This document shows positions 7,652 through 13,639 of a stretch of 13,639 nucleotides of DNA, piece by piece; the stretch's first letter is position 1, and every line of letters starts with the position of its first letter. The notes below the pieces were generated by a model that saw only the letters and a program-made list of their open reading frames with translations, was not told the origin of the DNA and made no database searches. A program made the position numbers and the translations under genes. Location: assembly GCA_049968235.1 (NCBI GenBank), contig JBMFRC010000036.1, positions 1 through 13,639 on the forward strand, read 5' to 3'. This DNA comes from Candidatus Hydrogenedens sp. (GTDB lineage Bacteria; Hydrogenedentota; Hydrogenedentia; Hydrogenedentales; Hydrogenedentaceae).

Positions 7652-8998
7652 TTAAAATACACATGCAAGAAATTTATCTTCTATAATTTGAGCAGGATGA
7701 TTATCCATAAAAAAATTATTACCTACACCGGCTTTGTTTATTATGAATTCGTCCCTTTGAGTTCCTTCCATATCAAAAGAACGATATATCAGCCGATTAC
7801 TTATACCTTTTTCTATAGTAATAATTTGGTAAGTGGGAATTTTCTCAAATGCTATTTCAATAATTTCTGTTTTCTCTTGTTGCTCGTAGGATTTTGTTCC
7901 TGAAAAGGATATTACATAATAAGTGCCCTCTGTGGGAGAAACTTTTTGGTTATTTTTTAATGGATATGTTCGCCAATAAGAATGGTCATGCCCTTGAAAT
8001 ACTATATCTACATGATATTGGTCTATTAATGGAAGCCATGCGTCCCTTAAATGTTTGTTATCTCTTCTTGGTGCGGAACTGTAGAAAGGTTGATGAAATA
8101 ACAAGAATTTCCAGAGAGACGAAGACCCTGAAAGTTGATGTTCCAACCAGGGGACTTGCTGTTCTGGATTATGGTTGGCGTTTAAGATTATAAACTGTGC
8201 ATTTAGGTATTTGACTGAATAACAAAATTCGCTGGTGATGTTTGCGGGTCCGTTTGTGGGCAGGACAAAGAAATCGAGATACATCTTAGGTAAAAGAGGA
8301 TTTGATTTATATTCATGGTTACCAATGGTCGGAACTATAGGATATTGGGCAAAGATATTATCTGCATAATGGAAAAAGGCATCCCAATCATCCCTTTCAT
8401 TCCCTCGATTTACAAGGTCGCCTGCCATTAAAATAAAGGAACAATCCGGACATTTTTCAATAGATTTTTTTAACAATTTTCCCCATTCTTCCAGACCATT
8501 TTGGGCATCACCTAAATAAATAAAAGAAAAAGTTTTTGCCTGAGTAGGTTCTGTTTTAAAGGTGTACCAATCACTCCATATTTCTAAATTGGGATTTCCT
8601 ACACGATATTCGTAATTTGTATTGGGTTCTAATGAATTGAGTGTAACAAACCAACGATAAATTTCCGGATTATTCTTTAAAGAAGGGTCGATAATAGAAA
8701 TGAACTTTGCAGATGTTCTTTTCGTCGATTCCTTATTTTGTTCTGTTTTCTTGTGCCATTCCACAATGCCTTCTTTGACTTCCGGCGATGTACTCCACTG
8801 AATTGTCATAGAAGTTGATGGAGTTTCTGTAAGGGTGAGTGTGATTTGTGCTGGAACTTGAGTAATAGGGAAGGGTGTCTCTCTATCTGGAGGGGTTTTT
8901 ACATCAGCAAATATGGGAGCGATAGCAGTTAGAAGAGTTATAAAGAAAATGAGGGTATAAACAAAAATACTAACATTTAAATTTTTGACTCTTATCAT
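7652..8998 (-). CDS. Secreted purple-acid-phosphatase-like calcineurin-type metallophosphoesterase with an N-terminal FN3-like domain
   Basis: 448 aa with a signal peptide/TM segment (IFVYTLIFFITLLTAIAPIFA). The ~100-aa N-terminal region resembles the PAP N-terminal domain (QWSTSPEVKEGIVEW...NTNYEYRVG). The metallophosphatase motifs are YLGDAQNG, AGDLVNRG, IGNHEY, LLFHQPFY and FQGHDHSYWR (the GHxHxYER type of purple acid phosphatases). AAAGGA RBS. Confidence 0.85.
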   Translation of the reverse strand: MIRVKNLNVSIFVYTLIFFITLLTAIAPIFADVKTPPDRETPFPITQVPAQITLTLTETPSTSMTIQWSTSPEVKEGIVEWHKKTEQNKESTKRTSAKFISIIDPSLKNNPEIYRWFVTLNSLEPNTNYEYRVGNPNLEIWSDWYTFKTEPTQAKTFSFIYLGDAQNGLEEWGKLLKKSIEKCPDCSFILMAGDLVNRGNERDDWDAFFHYADNIFAQYPIVPTIGNHEYKSNPLLPKMYLDFFVLPTNGPANITSEFCYSVKYLNAQFIILNANHNPEQQVPWLEHQLSGSSSLWKFLLFHQPFYSSAPRRDNKHLRDAWLPLIDQYHVDIVFQGHDHSYWRTYPLKNNQKVSPTEGTYYVISFSGTKSYEQQEKTEIIEIAFEKIPTYQIITIEKGISNRLIYRSFDMEGTQRDEFIINKAGVGNNFFMDNHPAQIIEDKFLACVF

Positions 8999-9069
8999 GT
9001 TTAATCCTTTTCAGTGAAGGTGAGAAGATAAATAAGAAATAACTTATCTATTAGATAAAGAATAATTTA

Positions 9070-9083
9070 AAAAAGTTTCAAAA
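9070..9083. repeat. Exact 14-nt direct repeat AAAAAGTTTCAAAA, copy 1 (copy 2 at 9457-9470). Together the copies bracket the G-rich island.
   Basis: Both copies were read directly from the sequence. Copy 2 is part of a tandem CAAAAAGTTT-CAAAAGTTT (9456-9474). A fourth CAAAAAGTTTA occurs at 9629-9639. Confidence 0.5.
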
Positions 9084-9208
9084 ATTAATATGCTAACTGA
9101 AACTGTACATGAAAAGAATGGGGAAAGTAATTGTTAAAGGGAAATTTTAAATTATTGTAACTTTTTTTTAATATTGATTGTTGTATTTTTTTTCCCTATT
9201 TAAAAAAG

Positions 9209-9401
9209 ATGCGCACGGGCATTACTATCGGAACAGGCATAGGAGGGGGGGATAGGAGCCCGTGCGCTGGGGAGGGTACTGTGCAGGGTAGTGAGGGCTG
9301 TGTGTGTGGTAATAAGTTAATTGTACCTGTGGTCTGGGTTGGGAGGAAGGCCAGATTTAGCAGGGCAACGTTTGTTAAACTTACCTCACTTTCTTCACAG
9401 G
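9209..9401 (+). ncRNA. Candidate structured RNA or regulatory element: a G-rich island inside a ~1-kb AT-rich intergenic region. Class unknown and strand uncertain.
   Basis: There is an abrupt composition shift to G-rich sequence. A 10-bp perfect inverted repeat GCGCACGGGC (9211-9220) / GCCCGTGCGC (9258-9267) encloses a 37-nt loop. G-tracts lie at 9269-9297, a G7 run at 9245-9251 and (TG)5 at 9299-9308. Secondary pairings are CCTGTG 9326-9331 with CACAGG 9396-9401 and TCTGG 9333-9337 with CCAGA 9351-9355. The overlapping 69-codon ORF has no RBS and a codon usage unlike the rest of the window. Confidence 0.3.
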
Positions 9402-9456
9402 AAAATATTCAAATTTAATAGAGCAATTATCTATTTTATTTATACTATAAACGCCC

Positions 9457-9470
9457 AAAAAGTTTCAAAA
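9457..9470. repeat. Exact 14-nt direct repeat AAAAAGTTTCAAAA, copy 2. It is embedded in a tandem CAAAA(A)GTTT x2.
   Basis: Read directly from the sequence. See the copy at 9070-9083. Confidence 0.5.
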
Positions 9471-9982
9471 GTTTACAATTCTTTTGTGTAAAAATCTATA
9501 AAAATTAAATATCATTAAATTTTATATAACTTTCACTCAATATTATAGCACAAAAAATTCATAAAATCAAATTTTTTAACAAAAATTTACATATCAATTA
9601 TAATAAAATAATTTGGTCTTTTATTCCTCAAAAAGTTTATATTTATTTAAAAATTATTGGAAATAGATTCACAAAATTTGTTTTTGACTATCCACTCGTT
9701 GAATAAAATCCAAAAGATTTTTTAGTTGTTTTGAAAGGATTTAAGAATAAATTATACAACAAAAAATAATGATAATTTACGATGAATGTTCGAAAGACTA
9801 TTTCAAAGATAGGAATTTAAATAATTTATTTTAATTTTGTAGGTGATATGCTATTACTACCCTTTAATATTAAAGTATAAGGGATAATGGATATAATAAA
9901 AATAATCGACATTATAGTGGCTATATTTTTTATAATCAATTTTATCTCAGTGATTTATTTCAAAAACAGGTAAGTTTTTAGT

Positions 9983-9988
9983 TATAAT
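9983..9988 (+). promoter_or_regulatory. Candidate sigma-70-type -10 hexamer TATAAT, ~20 nt upstream of the fliM start region
   Basis: Perfect TATAAT at 9983-9988. Only a weak -35 is found (TTCAAA/TCAAAA about 17-19 nt upstream). The AAAGGA RBS at 9994-9999 and the fliM ATG at 10009 would give a very short leader. This is a sequence-only call and is weak because AT-rich DNA makes chance TATAAT common. Confidence 0.2.
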
Positions 9989-10008
9989 CAAATAAAAGGA
10001 TTGTAGCG

Positions 10009-11013
10009 ATGGCAGATATTTTGAGCCAGGAAGAAATAGATTTATTATTAGGTTCTGTTACAACGGGAACTGTTGATACAGTCAAAAAAGAGGAACAAGA
10101 GGGCGAGCAAAAAGTTAGTGCTTATGATTTTCGCAGACCGGAACGTATTTCTAAAGAGCAGTTAAAGGGTTTACAAAGTATTTTTGAGTCCTTTGCCCGT
10201 GAACTTACAATAGTGCTCCCTCCATATTTTCGGACTATAGTCCGTGTTGACCTTATATCTATTGACCAATTAACTTATGATGAATTCATTCTTGCAATTT
10301 CCAGACCTACCTGTCTTGTCGTAGTTAATATGTCTCCATTAGATGGAGCGGGAATTTTAGAATTAAGTCCAACTGCTATTTTCCCAATAATTGACCGTGT
10401 ATTAGGGGGTAAAGGAAAGATATTACCTGAATTGCGAGAATTAACAGAAATAGAAGAGAGAATTATCGGGCGTATCGTAGAAATGATGTTGAGTTGTCTC
10501 AAAAGGGCATGGGAACAGGTTATCGAATTGAACTCTCGCGTTGAATCAATAGAAAGTGACCCGTTGATTGTTCAAATTGTTGCGGGTAGTGAGATGACTA
10601 TTCTCGTCAGTTATGAAATTCATGTTGGCGAAAACACAGGGACTATTAATTTTTGTATTCCTTTGATGGTAATGAATCCTCTTTTAGACCAGATATCCAA
10701 AATGGCTCATTATGCCCATCGAGTTAGTCCTGAAGAGGCAGAGTTAACACGTATTATGTTATTAAAACTTTTATTGAATGCCCCGATTAAATTGGATACA
10801 ATTTTAGGACGAGTAAATGTTGAGATGAGTGATTTAGTCGATTTGAAAGAGGGGGATGTTTTAGTGTTGAATAGAAAAATTGAAGAGCCTATTGTTGTTG
10901 AGATTGAAGGTTTACCAAAACTAAAAGGAACCATTGGTAGAAGAGGAGAAGAAATGGCATTGCGTATCTGTTCCATAATTCGGGATGAAAAAAATCCTGA
11001 AAATTATCTGTAA
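10009..11013 (+). CDS. fliM: Flagellar motor switch protein FliM
   Basis: 334 aa. The N-terminal CheY-P-binding peptide is MADILSQEEIDLLLG (LSQxEIDxLL). It is followed by YDFRRPERISKEQLKGLQSIFESFAR, which is FliM family. It has a CheC-like middle domain and a C-terminal FliN-like region. AAAGGA RBS 9 nt upstream. Confidence 0.93.
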   Translation: MADILSQEEIDLLLGSVTTGTVDTVKKEEQEGEQKVSAYDFRRPERISKEQLKGLQSIFESFARELTIVLPPYFRTIVRVDLISIDQLTYDEFILAISRPTCLVVVNMSPLDGAGILELSPTAIFPIIDRVLGGKGKILPELRELTEIEERIIGRIVEMMLSCLKRAWEQVIELNSRVESIESDPLIVQIVAGSEMTILVSYEIHVGENTGTINFCIPLMVMNPLLDQISKMAHYAHRVSPEEAELTRIMLLKLLLNAPIKLDTILGRVNVEMSDLVDLKEGDVLVLNRKIEEPIVVEIEGLPKLKGTIGRRGEEMALRICSIIRDEKNPENYL

Positions 11014-11026
11014 AGGAAGATGTTCG

Positions 11027-11965
11027 ATGAGATTAAACGAAATAATTGATTTGTTTTTCAAAGGTCTGGATGATGTTTTGTTATCTTTAGGAATAGGGGG
11101 AAATAAATATAAGATTCATGCAACAAAAATTATTGGGATAGAGGATATTCAATCTACCTTAAATGAGCAAAGTATTGTATTATGGGGAAAAGTTGAAAAA
11201 AATCAGGGTATATTGTTGTTATGTATGAACAGTGATGATGTCCGTGCATTAGTAGGGGCTGTTGAAGGAACAGTTCCTGAAGAAATAAATGAGACTGTTA
11301 TAAGCACATTGAAGGATTTGGGAGATGCATTTTTAGGGGGTGCCTTGAGTTCTCTTGCACAGTCTGCTAAAAAAGGTGTAGTACAGTTTGAACTTACAGG
11401 AATCCGGAAAGGGGAAGAAATATTTGACGCATCGTTTTATTCCCAAATTCAAGAGCCGGTCATATGTGGCTCCGTTGCGGTAGAAGGTAATATAAACTTT
11501 TCGTTCCCATGGATAGTAGTATTAGATAATCTTCTGAAAACATGGTTTCCCATAGATGAGGAAAAAGCAGGTGTAGAAGAGACTATGTTGACACAGGAAG
11601 AAATAGAATCGTTTATTAACAATGAAGTAATAAAACCAGAAACAAAGAAAGAAGAACAAACTACAGGAGCAAAACCCGTGAGTAAAAAATCAATAGATTC
11701 GGGTTACCGTAATTTGGATGTTATCTTGGATATTCAGGTGGAAGCCACAGCCCGATTGGGGAGTGTGCAAATGCCTCTAGCAACAGTGTTAAGTTTAGGG
11801 CCCGGTTCTGTAATCAATGTCGGACATGAGGTTGACAATCCCATTGAATTGTATGTGAATAATAAATTAATTGCCAAAGGCGATGTGGTTATCGTAGATG
11901 AAAAATTTGGTATTCGAATAACAGAAATTGTAAGTCCCCAGGAACGGATAGAGAGTTTACAGTGA
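11027..11965 (+). CDS. fliN: Flagellar motor switch protein FliN/FliY-like: an extended N-terminal domain plus a C-terminal FliN (SpoA) domain
   Basis: The C-terminal ~80 aa (LDVILDIQVEATARLGSVQMPLATVLSLGPGSVINVGHEVDNPIELYVNNKLIAKGDVVIVDEKFGIRITEIV) is the FliN/SpoA surface-presentation domain. I prefer the ATG at 11027 because AAGGAAG lies 7 nt upstream and it is just after the fliM stop. The longest ORF starts at 10985 and overlaps fliM by 29 nt, but it has no RBS. The N-terminal ~220 aa may have a degenerate CheC-like fold (EEIN is present but the full D/S-x3-E-x2-N-x22-P motif is not). Confidence 0.8.
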   Translation: MRLNEIIDLFFKGLDDVLLSLGIGGNKYKIHATKIIGIEDIQSTLNEQSIVLWGKVEKNQGILLLCMNSDDVRALVGAVEGTVPEEINETVISTLKDLGDAFLGGALSSLAQSAKKGVVQFELTGIRKGEEIFDASFYSQIQEPVICGSVAVEGNINFSFPWIVVLDNLLKTWFPIDEEKAGVEETMLTQEEIESFINNEVIKPETKKEEQTTGAKPVSKKSIDSGYRNLDVILDIQVEATARLGSVQMPLATVLSLGPGSVINVGHEVDNPIELYVNNKLIAKGDVVIVDEKFGIRITEIVSPQERIESLQ

Positions 11966-12720
11966 GTATCAGCGAAGAAAAAATATTATGGCAAAGATAT
12001 AAAGAAGAAAATGACGAATCTGCACGTGAGGAATTAATATACAAATATATGCCTATCGTTCGATTCATTGCAGGTAGAATTGCCATTCATGTTCCTCCCT
12101 CCATAGAGTTAGACGATTTGATTGGCTGGGGAATTGTAGGGTTATTGGATGCGATGGAACGGTATGATTACAAGCAGGATACACGGTTTAATACTTATGC
12201 ATCTATCCGTATACGCGGAACTATTTTAGACCAGATACGCTCTCTGGATTGGGCTCCCCGTTCTTTGAGAAGTATGGCTCGGAGAGTAGGTGCTGTTTCG
12301 GAGAAGTTGAGGCATCAGAAAGGGGGAGAACCTACAATTCATGATATTGCAGAGGCTTTAGGTGTAAGTTCGGAGCATATAGAAGAAACGGTGGCTAATT
12401 TACAAACGGTTCAGATGCTTTCTTTAGACCATTTTGCTATTTCGGAGGATGATGGCGCCGGGCGGACAAGGGAAATTAATACTGACGCATTCTATCCTTC
12501 TCCAGAAGAGGTGGCTCGTCAAAAAGAATTGCAAGAATTGCTTGTAGAAGCAATTATGAAACTGCCAGAACAACAGCAAAAAGTTCTTCATCTATACTAT
12601 TATGAAGAGTTAACATTAAAGGAAATCGGTGAAGTTCTTCAAGTTTCCGAATCACGGGTTTGTCAGATTCATGCCAGTGCTATTAAAACATTACGCGAAT
12701 TGGTAAAGTCGTGGGTATGA
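11962..12720 (+). CDS. fliA: Flagellar sigma factor sigma-28 (FliA/WhiG/SigD family)
   Basis: 252 aa. Region 2 is YMPIVRFIAGRI...ERYDYKQDTRFNTYASIRIRGTILDQIRSLDWAPRS (FliA-type LDWAPRS). The region 4 HTH is LTLKEIGEVLQVSESRVCQIHASAIKTLR. The GTG start at 11962 overlaps the fliN stop (GTGA), indicating translational coupling. Confidence 0.92.
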   Translation: MSISEEKILWQRYKEENDESAREELIYKYMPIVRFIAGRIAIHVPPSIELDDLIGWGIVGLLDAMERYDYKQDTRFNTYASIRIRGTILDQIRSLDWAPRSLRSMARRVGAVSEKLRHQKGGEPTIHDIAEALGVSSEHIEETVANLQTVQMLSLDHFAISEDDGAGRTREINTDAFYPSPEEVARQKELQELLVEAIMKLPEQQQKVLHLYYYEELTLKEIGEVLQVSESRVCQIHASAIKTLRELVKSWV

Positions 12721-12723
12721 TTT

Positions 12724-13053
12724 ATGCCGATGCCTATTGACCCAAATACTGAAATCTTGCGGGTAAATCTCGCGGAACGAATTCAACAAATTTCGGACAG
12801 GGCTTCTTTGTTAGGACAGGTTCGTCAATCTTTGAATGAGGAACAGCAACGGGTTGTTGATGAAACACAGGTAAAAGAAATGCAACAAAAGAGTGAACAG
12901 GTTGAGACCGAACTTAAAAGAAAGAATCCTTTTTTAGGGCGTAGGCGGAAGCCACAAAAGGAAGAATATAAAGAGGTATCTTCGGATGAAGAAATTAAAG
13001 GAACTTATGAAGATACAAAAGATGATGGTTCTCATCTGGATTTGCAAGCATAA
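12724..13053 (+). CDS. Hypothetical highly charged (K/E/Q-rich), probably disordered 109-aa protein, translationally coupled to fliA
   Basis: The ATG lies 3 nt after the fliA stop (TGATTTATG). The composition is low-complexity and charged (EEQQRVVDETQVKEMQQKSEQVETELKRK...) with no TM segment. I recognise no family. Its size and position are reminiscent of FlgM-type anti-sigma factors, but I see no FlgM sequence similarity. Confidence 0.5.
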   Translation: MPMPIDPNTEILRVNLAERIQQISDRASLLGQVRQSLNEEQQRVVDETQVKEMQQKSEQVETELKRKNPFLGRRRKPQKEEYKEVSSDEEIKGTYEDTKDDGSHLDLQA

Positions 13054-13083
13054 TTATAAAAAATAAAAAACGAGTTGGTTAAA

Positions 13084-13639
13084 ATGACATTACTGGTTAT
13101 AATCACATGGTTGGGTGTTCTCCTTATTGTGTTGTGCTTATTTTACTATGTATGGGATGACCGTAATAAAAGAAAACTTCATGAACATCGCCGGGTAGAA
13201 ATCAGTGAATTAGCCATGGTCTTTCAAACTTTGAGGGATGTTGTTTCAGAACAGAAAATACTGGCGAAAGAATTCAATGAACAGGTAGAAGAAAAAATAA
13301 CATTAATTCGTGGTATTGTAAATGAAGCCCAGAATAAGGTGAAGCAGATACAGCAGGAAATATATGAGCAATCTAAAAAACTAAACGAATTACAGGAACA
13401 AATGGATAGGATTATATGTCAAAAGAATGCCTTAAATGCTTCATCTACAAGTGATATTTATTCCATAGGAACAGTCTCCATTATAGAAGCAGAATCTATA
13501 TGCGAAAAATTAAATGAAAAAATGGAAGGTAATAAGAATATAATACAAGAAATGCCATTGGAAGAAATTAAAGAAATAAGTAAAACAGAAGATGAAAAAC
13601 TTTTAATAAATTTAGGAGAGGAACAGAAAAATATACGAG
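13084..13639 (+). CDS. Hypothetical membrane-anchored coiled-coil protein, 3'-truncated by the window end; not in the supplied ORF track
   Basis: The ATG at 13084 opens frame 1 with no stop to the window end (185+ codons). There is an N-terminal TM helix (MTLLVIITWLGVLLIVLCLFYYVW) followed by heptad-like coiled-coil sequence rich in Q/E/K (NEAQNKVKQIQQEIYEQSKKLNELQEQMDR...). It runs in the same orientation as the flagellar genes, 30 nt after the preceding ORF. Confidence 0.5.
   Translation, partial: MTLLVIITWLGVLLIVLCLFYYVWDDRNKRKLHEHRRVEISELAMVFQTLRDVVSEQKILAKEFNEQVEEKITLIRGIVNEAQNKVKQIQQEIYEQSKKLNELQEQMDRIICQKNALNASSTSDIYSIGTVSIIEAESICEKLNEKMEGNKNIIQEMPLEEIKEISKTEDEKLLINLGEEQKNIR

What the first reader, a model, noticed from the sequence alone, without database searches (positions are those of the whole stretch)
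9209..9401. Sharp G-rich island with a long perfect hairpin inside a 1-kb AT-rich intergenic desert: candidate structured RNA or riboswitch
The surrounding ~1 kb is extremely AT-rich, yet ~190 bp switch abruptly to GC/G-rich sequence. The 10-bp perfect inverted repeat GCGCACGGGC/GCCCGTGCGC (9211-9220 / 9258-9267) encloses a purine-rich 37-nt loop, and further pairings exist (CCTGTG 9326-9331 with CACAGG 9396-9401; TCTGG 9333-9337 with CCAGA 9351-9355). In AT-rich genomes, GC islands in intergenic DNA are the classic signature of structured RNAs such as sRNAs, riboswitches, SRP RNA or 6S RNA. The overlapping 69-codon ORF (Gly-rich, no RBS, GC-rich codons unlike every other gene here) argues for RNA rather than protein. 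It lies between the divergently transcribed phosphatase gene and the flagellar fliM operon, so it could control either. I could not match it confidently to any known RNA family by eye. I checked c-di-GMP riboswitch, tRNA, tmRNA and SRP domain IV; the last shows only loose GGAGGAAGGCCAG resemblance.
Basis: seen in the sequence. Interest (0 to 1): 0.65.

Follow-up and report, generated by a model that had tools for sequence, protein, structure and literature searches.

The report
Ultraconserved small-RNA gene candidate in Hydrogenedens
The G-rich island is real and is almost base-for-base identical in every related Candidatus Hydrogenedens genome found; it does not code for protein, matches no known RNA family, and is most likely an undescribed small RNA gene read from the opposite (C-rich) strand, not a riboswitch for the flagellar or phosphatase genes.

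Summary
Window 9209-9401 has 53% G+C (37% G) against 20% in the surrounding spacer, and all stated pairings sit at the stated coordinates.

The island is the core of a roughly 420-bp conserved block (9197-9617). The block occurs once, always beside the purple-acid-phosphatase gene, in 16 sequence variants from Candidatus Hydrogenedens relatives. Positions 9258-9298 are invariant in all of them, while neighbouring genes are only 70-90% identical in DNA and the adjacent spacer about 35%.

The 69-codon ORF is broken by indels in relatives, so it is not coding. Rfam, ARAGORN, plasmid, phage and viral searches found nothing.

No base pair covaries on either strand, so no fold is proven.

The strand is inferred as minus, from four points:
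- A promoter TTGATT-17-TGYTATAAT is invariant in 16/16.
- The 10-bp hairpin is followed by U6 in 13/16, and conservation ends there.
- Folding z-scores are better on the minus strand in 12/12 homologues.
- The plus-strand fliM promoter lies downstream of the island.

One lineage lost the fliM cluster but kept the island.

Best reading: a 230-335 nt C-rich trans-acting sRNA that displays CCUCC-type motifs. It would be a new RNA family of a known kind. Transcription and function are untested.

The parts
9197..9617 (.). Whole conserved block: G/C-rich island plus about 215 bp of AT-rich DNA carrying promoters. Flanks on both sides are unconserved.
   Evidence: Alignments. Per-segment identity is: 9166-9196 about 35%, 9618-9650 27-70%, and 64-100% in the named conserved segments inside the block (18-90% in its variable stretches 9306-9320, 9353-9381 and 9477-9538).
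9542..9570 (-). Promoter (a): -35 TTGATT (9570-9565), 17-nt spacer, extended -10 TGCTATAAT (-10 at 9547-9542). Predicted start is about 9535, giving a transcript of about 335 nt.
   Evidence: Found by the scan. TTGA(T/A)T-17-TG(C/T)TATAAT is present in 16/16 variants while the spacer sequence varies. It is retained where fliM is lost (L014).
9439..9468 (-). Element (b): TTGAAA (9468-9463), 18 nt, TATAAA (9444-9439). It is a possible second promoter (start about 9432, transcript about 230 nt) or an operator. GTAAAC and CGTT are invariant around it.
   Evidence: My regular expression matches 10/16 variants; the other six were not parsed. It shares the 12-mer TTTGAAACTTTT with the phosphatase promoter at 9071-9082; those are the only two exact copies in the window.
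9406..9416 (-). Invariant AAAUUUGAAUA just 5' of the C-rich domain (minus-strand reading).
   Evidence: TATTCAA is invariant in all variants.
9279..9400 (-). Long-range helix P1, 9384-9400 pairing with 9279-9296. It encloses a variable apical region (9353-9381), the H2 hairpin and a variable AT linker (9306-9320).
   Evidence: Predicted in MFE folds of all homologues and in RNAalifold. 95% of cells are paired, but only one-sided changes occur and none are compensatory.
9333..9355 (-). H2: UCUGG/CCAGA stem presenting the loop CCUUCCUCCCAAC (GGAGGAAG is invariant on the plus strand).
   Evidence: The stem register is ambiguous and is not supported by covariation.
9258..9298 (-). 41-nt stretch invariant in all 16 variants. 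On the minus strand it reads GCCCUCACUACCCUGCACAGUACCCUCCCCAGCGCACGGGC.
   Evidence: The overlapping segment 9268-9305 is 100% identical in 13/15 relatives and 95% in the other two, whose only differences lie in the (TG)n tract beyond 9298, against 70-90% for neighbouring coding DNA.
9299..9308 (.). (TG)n / (CA)n microsatellite, 3-6 units among relatives.
9211..9267 (-). 3' hairpin: 10-bp GC stem, an inner 5-bp stem (9225-9229/9251-9255) and an invariant 21-nt loop. On the minus strand the loop reads CCCCCCUCCUAUGCCUGUUCC, with a C-run of 6-7.
   Evidence: All stem positions are invariant.
9202..9207 (-). U6 tract 3 nt after the hairpin, completing an intrinsic-terminator-like 3' end. Conservation stops here.
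   Evidence: U6 in 13/16 variants, U4 in L021 and L022, none in L016. The terminator scan missed it because its loop limit is 8 nt.
9576..9604 (+). Neighbour, not part of the RNA: plus-strand promoter TTAACA-17-TATAAT, back-to-back with promoter (a). It probably serves the fliM operon.
   Evidence: Best consensus match in the whole window at 11/12. It is conserved in relatives and degenerate (TTATCA..TATTTT) in L014, where fliM is absent.
9052..9081 (-). Neighbour: the phosphatase gene's own promoter-like motif, TTGAAA(C)-18-TATCTA(AT).
   Evidence: Read by eye from the sequences. It is conserved in window, L004, L006, L009, L012 and L014 with variable spacers, and is weak in L016.

Best explanation
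The island is the body of a previously undescribed small non-coding RNA gene on the MINUS strand of Candidatus Hydrogenedens and close relatives.

Proposed anatomy:
- Transcription starts at the invariant extended -10 promoter at 9570-9542, and possibly also at a second promoter-like element at 9468-9439.
- It runs leftward through an AT-rich 5' part and the C-rich domain.
- It ends at the hairpin 9267-9211 plus U6 (9207-9202), upstream of the phosphatase gene's own promoter.

The product (about 230-335 nt) is C-rich and G-poor, so much of it cannot be base-paired. It would display three invariant C-rich segments:
- CCUUCCUCCCAAC in a hairpin loop.
- CCCUCACUACCCUGCACAGUACCCUCCCCA.
- CCCCCCUCCUAUGCC in the terminal hairpin loop.

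These contain CCUCC, the anti-Shine-Dalgarno word. I infer that the RNA acts in trans by pairing these segments with G-rich ribosome-binding regions of mRNAs, as RsaE/RoxS and 6C do.

Shown: extreme conservation, non-coding nature, single syntenic copy, conserved promoter and terminator-like signals.
Inferred: transcription, strand, ends, fold and the base-pairing mechanism.
For: Conservation:
- One copy sits at the same position in every locus whose phosphatase is at least 61% identical.
- 9258-9298 is invariant in 16 variants. Neighbouring genes are 70-90% identical in DNA and the adjoining spacer about 35%.

Not coding:
- 1- and 2-nt indels change the frame, and ORF length ranges from 14 to 136 codons.

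Minus strand:
- Promoter (a) TTGA(T/A)T-17-TGYTATAAT is present in 16/16 variants with a varying spacer sequence.
- The hairpin is followed by U6 in 13/16, and conservation ends exactly there.
- Nothing upstream of the island on the plus strand is conserved except that A-run, which is a poor -10.
- MFE z-scores are -2.9 to -5.5 on the minus strand and always lower than on the plus strand (+0.4 to -4.4) in 12/12 homologues.

Independence from neighbours:
- The L014/L037 lineage lost the fliM-to-flhB-like cluster but kept the island and promoter (a).
- The phosphatase gene has its own conserved promoter motif downstream of the terminator.

Precedent for C-rich loops pairing with G-rich ribosome-binding sites: PMC2790875 (Rsa RNAs, UCCC motif) and PMC6486639 (6C sRNA).
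Against: - There is no expression data of any kind.
- There is no covariation: 0 compensatory pairs, and observed values equal the shuffles on both strands. The fold and the strand therefore rest on indirect evidence.
- The z-score asymmetry may partly reflect G-rich shuffles folding well through G-U pairs.
- The terminator is atypical: a 37-nt loop region and a 3-nt gap before the U-run. The U-run is only 4 in L021 and L022 and is absent in L016.
- Sigma-70-like matches are at chance frequency in this AT-rich window, 44 against 52 expected. Only their conservation counts as evidence.
- Invariance of whole stems and loops over about 95 nt exceeds what seed pairing alone would require.
- No target was identified. 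Pairing with the phosphatase translation-initiation region is not significant across 8 species.
Confidence: 0.45

Rival explanations
1. Cis-acting 5' leader or attenuator of the phosphatase mRNA on the minus strand. Transcription from promoters (a) and (b) would read through the C-rich domain, and the hairpin plus U6 would act as a regulated terminator controlling the downstream purple-acid-phosphatase gene.
For: - The island is always immediately upstream of the phosphatase gene and co-oriented with it in all loci.
- In L016 the U-tract is missing and the gene starts only 136 nt downstream, so read-through is likely there.
- Element (b) and the phosphatase promoter share TTTGAAACTTTT.
Against: - The hairpin-to-gene spacer is unconserved and ranges from about 130 to about 390 nt.
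- A separate conserved promoter motif lies about 75 nt upstream of the start codon.
- No conserved alternative (anti-terminator) pairing exists. The only candidate partner, 9363-9369, lies in the variable region.
- There is no Rfam riboswitch or leader match.
Confidence: 0.2
2. The functional RNA is the G-rich PLUS strand. It would be either a structured RNA with a G-quadruplex-capable core (GGGG-A-GGG-N9-GGG-N6-GGG, 9270-9297), or a protein sponge presenting 8 GGA/SD-like motifs, in the manner of CsrB/RsmZ.
For: - The plus strand folds to -69.5 kcal/mol with z = -2.5 to -3.0 in the window.
- Some one-sided changes are G-C to G-U on the plus strand, for example the 9395 C/U position.
- The UGGUCU/AGGCCA register of H2 contains a U-G pair that would be an A-C mismatch on the minus strand.
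- The G-tracts and GGA motifs are invariant.
Against: - No conserved promoter lies upstream of 9209. Only TTTAAAAAAG is conserved, and it is absent in L016.
- There is no terminator after 9401 on the plus strand.
- Plus-strand z-scores are near zero in L022 and L016 and are weaker than the minus strand in 12/12 homologues.
- Other one-sided changes are A-C mismatches on the plus strand but G-U pairs on the minus strand.
- Csr/Rsm sponges conserve only their GGA loops, not every nucleotide, and there is no Rfam hit.
Confidence: 0.15
3. A DNA-level element rather than an RNA, such as a nucleoprotein binding platform, a recombination or attachment site, or a replication-related sequence.
For: - Stems and loops are equally invariant, which no RNA fold requires.
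- It lies in a long AT-rich spacer between divergent genes.
- Metagenome contigs often break at the block.
Against: - Ninety-five invariant nucleotides is far longer than known binding sites.
- There is no DnaA-box cluster and no GC-skew switch.
- It is a single syntenic copy with no integrase or mobile genes nearby.
- It is absent from plasmid, phage and viral collections.
- The contig breaks are explained by the block being identical among co-occurring species.
Confidence: 0.07
4. A small protein is encoded: the 69-aa Gly-rich ORF, or another short ORF on either strand.
For: The first codon is ATG, GTG or TTG in all variants, and gene callers sometimes call an ORF here.
Against: - The frame is not conserved. 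G-run length varies by 1 nt, there is a 1-nt indel near 9222, and (TG)n varies by 2-4 nt. Products range from 14 to 136 aa with different sequences.
- There is no Pfam hit.
- Only 2 trivial database hits were found, and none for the other frame.
- DNA is more conserved than any reading frame would require.
Confidence: 0.02

Closest known systems
6C sRNA of Actinobacteria (Rfam 6C; PMC6486639, PMC5014011)
   Same: A highly conserved, chaperone-independent sRNA whose hairpin loops carry runs of six or more C. Those loops pair with G-rich mRNA regions. Here the terminal hairpin loop carries C6-7 followed by UCC, and a second loop reads CCUUCCUCCC.
   Different: There is no covariance-model match at E<=10. 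The candidate is three to four times longer, comes from a different phylum, has an additional long-range helix and an invariant single-stranded C-rich core, and has no known target.
RsaE/RoxS and other C-rich-motif sRNAs of Bacillota (PMC2790875, PMC6158497, PMC5419742)
   Same: A stand-alone gene with its own promoter and intrinsic terminator, and unpaired C-rich (UCCC/CCUCC) motifs complementary to Shine-Dalgarno sequences.
   Different: There is no sequence or model similarity. The candidate has much stronger nucleotide-level invariance, and its regulon and regulator are unknown.
GC-rich islands as ncRNA markers in AT-rich genomes (approach of Klein, Misulovin and Eddy 2002; cited from my own knowledge, not checked here)
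   Same: The signature is the same: a sharp GC-rich island (53%) in a 20% GC spacer of a 35% GC genome.
   Different: That is a detection principle, not a family. Here the composition is strongly strand-skewed (G 37%, C 17%), unlike typical well-paired structural RNAs.
CsrB/RsmY/RsmZ protein-sponge RNAs (plus-strand reading)
   Same: There are multiple GGA motifs, several of them in predicted loops, next to a flagellar operon.
   Different: No model hit was found. Conservation is not limited to the GGA motifs. No plus-strand promoter or terminator exists. The island persists where the flagellar cluster is lost. The presence of csrA was not examined.

Membership tests
Any Rfam 15 family (4227 models, including SRP, 6S, RNase P, tmRNA, riboswitches, 6C, RsaE, CsrB/Rsm) | Covariance-model score at or above the family's gathering threshold | tested here: not met
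   There were 0 hits at gathering score in the whole window. Only chance eukaryotic or CRISPR hits (17-21 bits against 37-54 needed) appeared at E<=10 in 9000-10000. Nothing overlapped the island in five divergent homologous loci.
tRNA / tmRNA | ARAGORN detection | tested here: not met
   0 genes were found in the window.
Riboswitch or cis-regulatory leader of fliM | Lies within the 5' UTR, between the promoter and the regulated ORF, and co-occurs with that gene | tested here: not met
   The conserved plus-strand promoter 9576-9604 is downstream of the island. The island is retained where the fliM cluster is deleted.
Riboswitch or attenuator of the phosphatase gene | Aptamer followed by an expression platform with mutually exclusive terminator and anti-terminator pairings close to the regulated ORF | tested here: inconclusive
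   The island is co-oriented with the gene, always adjacent to it, and carries a hairpin plus U6. However, no conserved anti-terminator was found, the spacer is unconserved at about 130-390 nt, and a separate promoter motif precedes the gene.
Structured RNA (generic) | Base pairs supported by compensatory substitutions | tested here: inconclusive
   There were 0 pairs with changes on both sides on either strand, and observed values equal the shuffles. The stems are invariant, so the test has no power.
Stand-alone bacterial sRNA gene | Own promoter, no conserved ORF, and an intrinsic terminator at the 3' end | tested here: met
   The promoter is present in 16/16 variants, the ORF is not conserved, and a GC hairpin plus U6 is present in 13/16. 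Whether it is transcribed cannot be tested with these tools.
Stand-alone bacterial sRNA gene | A discrete transcript is detected | not testable with these tools
   No RNA-seq data are accessible.
6C / RsaE-type C-rich sRNAs | C-rich motifs exposed in loops or single strands | tested here: met
   Minus-strand MFE and centroid folds leave CCUUCCUCCCAAC, UACCCUCCCCA and CCCCCCUCCUAUGCCUGUUCC unpaired. This shows analogy only.
6C / RsaE-type C-rich sRNAs | Homology to the family model and the family's taxonomic range | tested here: not met
   There is no model hit. The host is Hydrogenedentota, not Actinomycetota or Bacillota.
Small protein gene | Reading frame and product conserved among relatives | tested here: not met
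Repeat or mobile element | Multiple copies or varying genomic context | tested here: not met
   There is one copy per locus, always syntenic, in 397 kb of fetched DNA. No viral, plasmid or phage match was found. Whole-genome copy number was not testable.
Replication origin | Cluster of DnaA boxes and a GC-skew switch | tested here: not met
   No DnaA-box match lies in 9000-10000, and the window total is at chance. Cumulative skew rises through the region.

The most novel reading that the evidence does not exclude
The RNA is not an ordinary seed-pairing sRNA but a new class of functional RNA. About 95 consecutive invariant nucleotides, conserved at rRNA- or tRNA-like levels and including loops, a C7 run and CCUCC words, would reflect intimate contact along its whole length with a conserved machine. 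One possibility is an anti-Shine-Dalgarno mimic that competes with 16S rRNA for mRNA ribosome-binding sites. Another is the RNA subunit of an unknown ribonucleoprotein specific to Hydrogenedentota.
Probability: 0.1. Interest if true: 0.75.

Novelty: new member of a known kind. Interest (0 to 1): 0.5.

Why it matters
Hydrogenedentota is an uncultivated phylum common in anaerobic digesters, and I found no paper describing a regulatory RNA from it in two full-text searches. This would be a lineage-specific RNA gene defined purely from comparative genomics. It comes with clear, testable boundaries, promoter and terminator. Its level of conservation implies an important role.

It also has two practical uses. 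First, it explains why MAG contigs of these organisms break at this locus: the block behaves like a repeat shared between species. Second, it gives a 41-nt invariant tag that could serve as a probe for the clade.

Tried and rejected
- **Repeat or mobile-element idea.** Two MAGs of the same species break their contigs at 9211 and at 9849/9893. I rejected this: every copy found is single and syntenic. The breaks fit a sequence that is identical among co-occurring species.
- **oriC.** There are no DnaA boxes in the spacer and no skew switch.
- **Known RNA families.** Rfam at gathering score and at E<=10 on the window, and on five divergent homologues, plus ARAGORN, gave nothing.
- **Covariation to fix fold and strand.** RNAalifold and pair counting on both strands had no power and found 0 compensatory changes. 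The two variable regions, 9306-9320 and 9353-9381, pair in the window (UAAGUU/AACUUA), but by eye on the alignment that pairing is not maintained in relatives.
- **Phosphatase mRNA as a target.** The window gave z = -3.45 in a first scan of 21 translation-initiation regions. Species-by-species tests gave z from -1.07 to +1.19, so I rejected it.
- **Fishing for more copies through spuriously called ORFs.** This gave 2 hits and then 0 hits. The only gain was the L037/L038 loci.
- **More distant phosphatase homologues (46-49% identity).** Synteny is lost and no island is present.
- **The genome contigs protein-anchored scan.** It returned only 11 loci.
- **Literature.** I found no paper on Hydrogenedentota or Hydrogenedens ncRNAs.

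Full report
**1. The observation**

The sequence is as described. Positions 9209-9401 are 53% G+C with 37% G, inside a spacer that is 20% G+C.

The 10-bp arms 9211-9220 and 9258-9267 are perfect complements. The three smaller pairings are at the stated coordinates.

A GC-rich 10-bp inverted repeat with a loop of 60 nt or less never appeared in 300 composition-preserving block shuffles.

The flanking genes are a secreted-type purple-acid-phosphatase-like metallophosphoesterase (7652-8998, minus strand) and fliM-fliN-sigma (from 10009, plus strand). Source names of homologous proteins and loci place the window in Candidatus Hydrogenedens, phylum Hydrogenedentota.

**2. What relatives show**

I fetched the phosphatase locus from relatives whose phosphatase is 85% down to 61% identical. 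I also scanned metagenome contigs for a 25-mer of the island.

Every such locus carries the island once, at the same place and in the same orientation relative to the phosphatase gene. That gave 16 distinct sequence variants.

The conservation is striking:
- 9258-9298 is identical in all variants.
- 9268-9305 is 100% identical in 13 of 15 relatives; the other two differ only in (TG)n length.
- The aminotransferase, phosphatase, fliM and smpB genes are only 70-90% identical at the DNA level.
- The spacer just left of the island is about 35% identical.

The conserved block is larger than the finding. It runs from 9197 to 9617 and includes about 215 bp of AT-rich DNA to the right of the island.

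Loci with more distant phosphatase homologues lack both the synteny and the island. These were Sumerlaeaceae, Alcanivorax and other Hydrogenedentota at 46-49% identity. The core is absent from the viral, plasmid and phage collections.

Two MAGs of the window's own species break their contigs at 9211 and near 9849/9893. Other assemblies break inside the block. I first read this as a sign of a repeat. The better explanation is that the block is identical in co-occurring species and confuses metagenome assemblers.

**3. Not a protein, and not a known RNA**

The 69-codon ORF starts with ATG, GTG or TTG in all variants. However, 1-nt and 2-nt indels shift the frame: the G-run is 6 or 7, there is one extra T near 9222, and (TG)n has 3-6 units. 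The 'product' is therefore 14-136 residues with unrelated sequences.

Pfam finds nothing. Database searches with two of its frames were essentially empty.

Rfam 15 gave no hit at gathering score in the window. It gave only chance hits at E<=10, and nothing over the island in five divergent homologues. ARAGORN found nothing.

**4. Structure**

Both strands fold better than shuffles. Every stem is invariant or changes on one side only. There are no compensatory substitutions, and pair statistics equal the shuffled controls on both strands.

The fold is therefore plausible but unproven. Covariation cannot pick the strand either: one-sided changes include some that are G-U on the plus strand and A-C on the minus strand, and others the reverse.

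**5. Which strand**

Four independent observations favour the minus strand.

(i) A near-consensus extended -10 promoter on the minus strand, TTGATT-17-TGCTATAAT (9570-9542), is present in 16/16 variants while its spacer sequence varies. Promoter-like matches in general are at chance frequency in this AT-rich window. The conservation is the evidence, not the match itself.

(ii) On the minus strand the 10-bp GC hairpin is followed, after 3 nt, by U6 in 13/16 variants, and sequence conservation stops exactly there. The remaining variants have U4 in two cases and none in L016.

(iii) On the plus strand nothing upstream of 9209 is conserved except that A-run, and no terminator follows 9401.

(iv) MFE z-scores for the minus strand are -2.9 to -5.5. 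They are lower than the plus strand in all 12 homologues tested, where the plus strand ranges from +0.4 to -4.4. One caveat applies: G-rich shuffles fold well through G-U pairs, which may inflate the asymmetry.

A second promoter-like element, TTGAAA-18-TATAAA (9468-9439), is less strictly conserved. It shares the 12-mer TTTGAAACTTTT with the phosphatase promoter region; these are the only two exact copies in the window.

**6. Relation to the neighbouring genes**

The best sigma-70 match in the whole window is TTAACA-17-TATAAT on the plus strand at 9576-9604. It lies back-to-back with the minus-strand promoter and downstream of the island, so the island is not in a fliM transcript started there.

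In the L014/L029/L037 lineage the seven-gene fliM-to-flhB-like cluster is precisely absent. The plus-strand promoter has decayed there, yet the island and the minus-strand promoter are intact.

Toward the phosphatase gene, the hairpin plus U6 is followed by an unconserved spacer of about 130-390 nt. A conserved motif, TTGAAAC-18-TATCTAAT, then lies about 75 nt before the start codon (read).

This architecture fits an independent gene placed in tandem upstream of the phosphatase gene better than a leader. In L016, which has no U-tract and only a 136-nt gap, read-through is likely. A cis role therefore cannot be excluded.

**7. Proposed mechanism**

The minus-strand RNA is 37% C and 17% G over the island, so much of it must be single-stranded.

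The MFE and centroid folds leave three invariant C-rich segments exposed:
- CCUUCCUCCCAAC, in the H2 loop.
- UACCCUCCCCA, with the adjacent CCCUCACUACCCUG.
- CCCCCCUCCUAUGCCUGUUCC, in the terminal hairpin loop.

All contain CCUCC-type words complementary to Shine-Dalgarno-like G-rich sequences.

The nearest functional analogues are C-rich-loop sRNAs that pair with ribosome-binding regions without a chaperone. These are the 6C sRNA (PMC6486639, PMC5014011) and RsaE/RoxS and related RNAs (PMC2790875, PMC6158497, PMC5419742). This is an analogy only; the homology tests failed.

I looked for a target among 21 translation-initiation regions available for this species. The phosphatase gene scored z = -3.45, but the signal did not hold in eight species tested with their own sequences.

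Invariance of whole stems and loops is more than seed pairing needs. That leaves room for a protein- or ribosome-bound RNA, which is the novel case.

**8. Verdict**

The finding is real and worth recording. The strand, the riboswitch suggestion and the link to fliM are probably wrong.

I rate it as a new family of a known kind, a stand-alone bacterial sRNA candidate, in a phylum for which two full-text searches found no described regulatory RNA. Transcription, fold and function are all still to be shown.

Noticed in passing
L014:5148-6000, L037:4884-5737; compare L002 and window 10009-13639: One Hydrogenedens lineage lacks exactly the seven-gene cluster fliM-fliN-sigma-hyp-DUF6115-hyp-flhB-like that lies between the island and ygbB in the others. 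The flanks are otherwise collinear, and the fliM promoter remnant is degenerate (TTATCA..TATTTT). This suggests a clean deletion and possibly loss of motility.
   Followed up: partly
window 9052-9082 (minus strand) and 9458-9469 (minus strand): The phosphatase gene has a conserved promoter-like motif, TTGAAAC-N18-TATCTAAT. Its extended -35 word TTTGAAACTTTT recurs exactly in element (b) upstream of the island. The AAC...TCTAA layout loosely resembles ECF-sigma promoters, so the two units may be co-regulated.
   Followed up: partly
L001 end = window 9211; L003 start = window 9849; L002 start about 9893; L007, L008 and L011 ends inside the block: Metagenome-assembled contigs of several samples terminate at or inside the conserved block. 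The locus therefore behaves like an inter-species repeat in assembly, as rRNA operons do.
   Followed up: yes
window 9243-9250 (G-run) and 9299-9308 ((TG)5): There are two simple-sequence tracts inside an otherwise invariant element. Their length varies among relatives: G6/G7 or GGGGAAG, and (TG)3-6. This may be slippage-prone, but no function is known.
   Followed up: partly
L014:5617-5695 (also L015, L035): The roughly 60-nt insertion in the L014 lineage is a partial internal duplication of the GGAGGAAGGCC...CCAGA hairpin region. It gives a second nhmmer hit to profile positions 137-213.
   Followed up: partly
window 9003-9030 (minus strand) and the equivalent regions of L004, L006 and L009: Phosphatase 5' UTRs carry a C-rich word (CUCACCUU, CCCACCU or CCCCCCCU) 8-12 nt upstream of the AAAAGGA Shine-Dalgarno sequence. 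It could fold back on the Shine-Dalgarno sequence.
   Followed up: no
L019 and L021 record titles: Two MAGs are titled 'uncultured Nitrospirales bacterium'. Both carry the Hydrogenedens-type gene order and the island, with phosphatase identity of 69% and 62%. The titles look like mis-assignments.
   Followed up: no
L009:8925-11577 versus L010:5758-8409: The PAS-histidine-kinase/receiver hybrid gene is called as two ORFs (680 + 195 aa) in one assembly and as one 883-aa ORF in a near-identical contig. This is a likely frameshift or assembly error.
   Followed up: no
window 10985-11013: The longest fliN ORF (start 10985) overlaps the end of fliM by 29 nt. Gene calls in identical contigs start fliN 14 nt after the fliM stop instead.
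   Followed up: no
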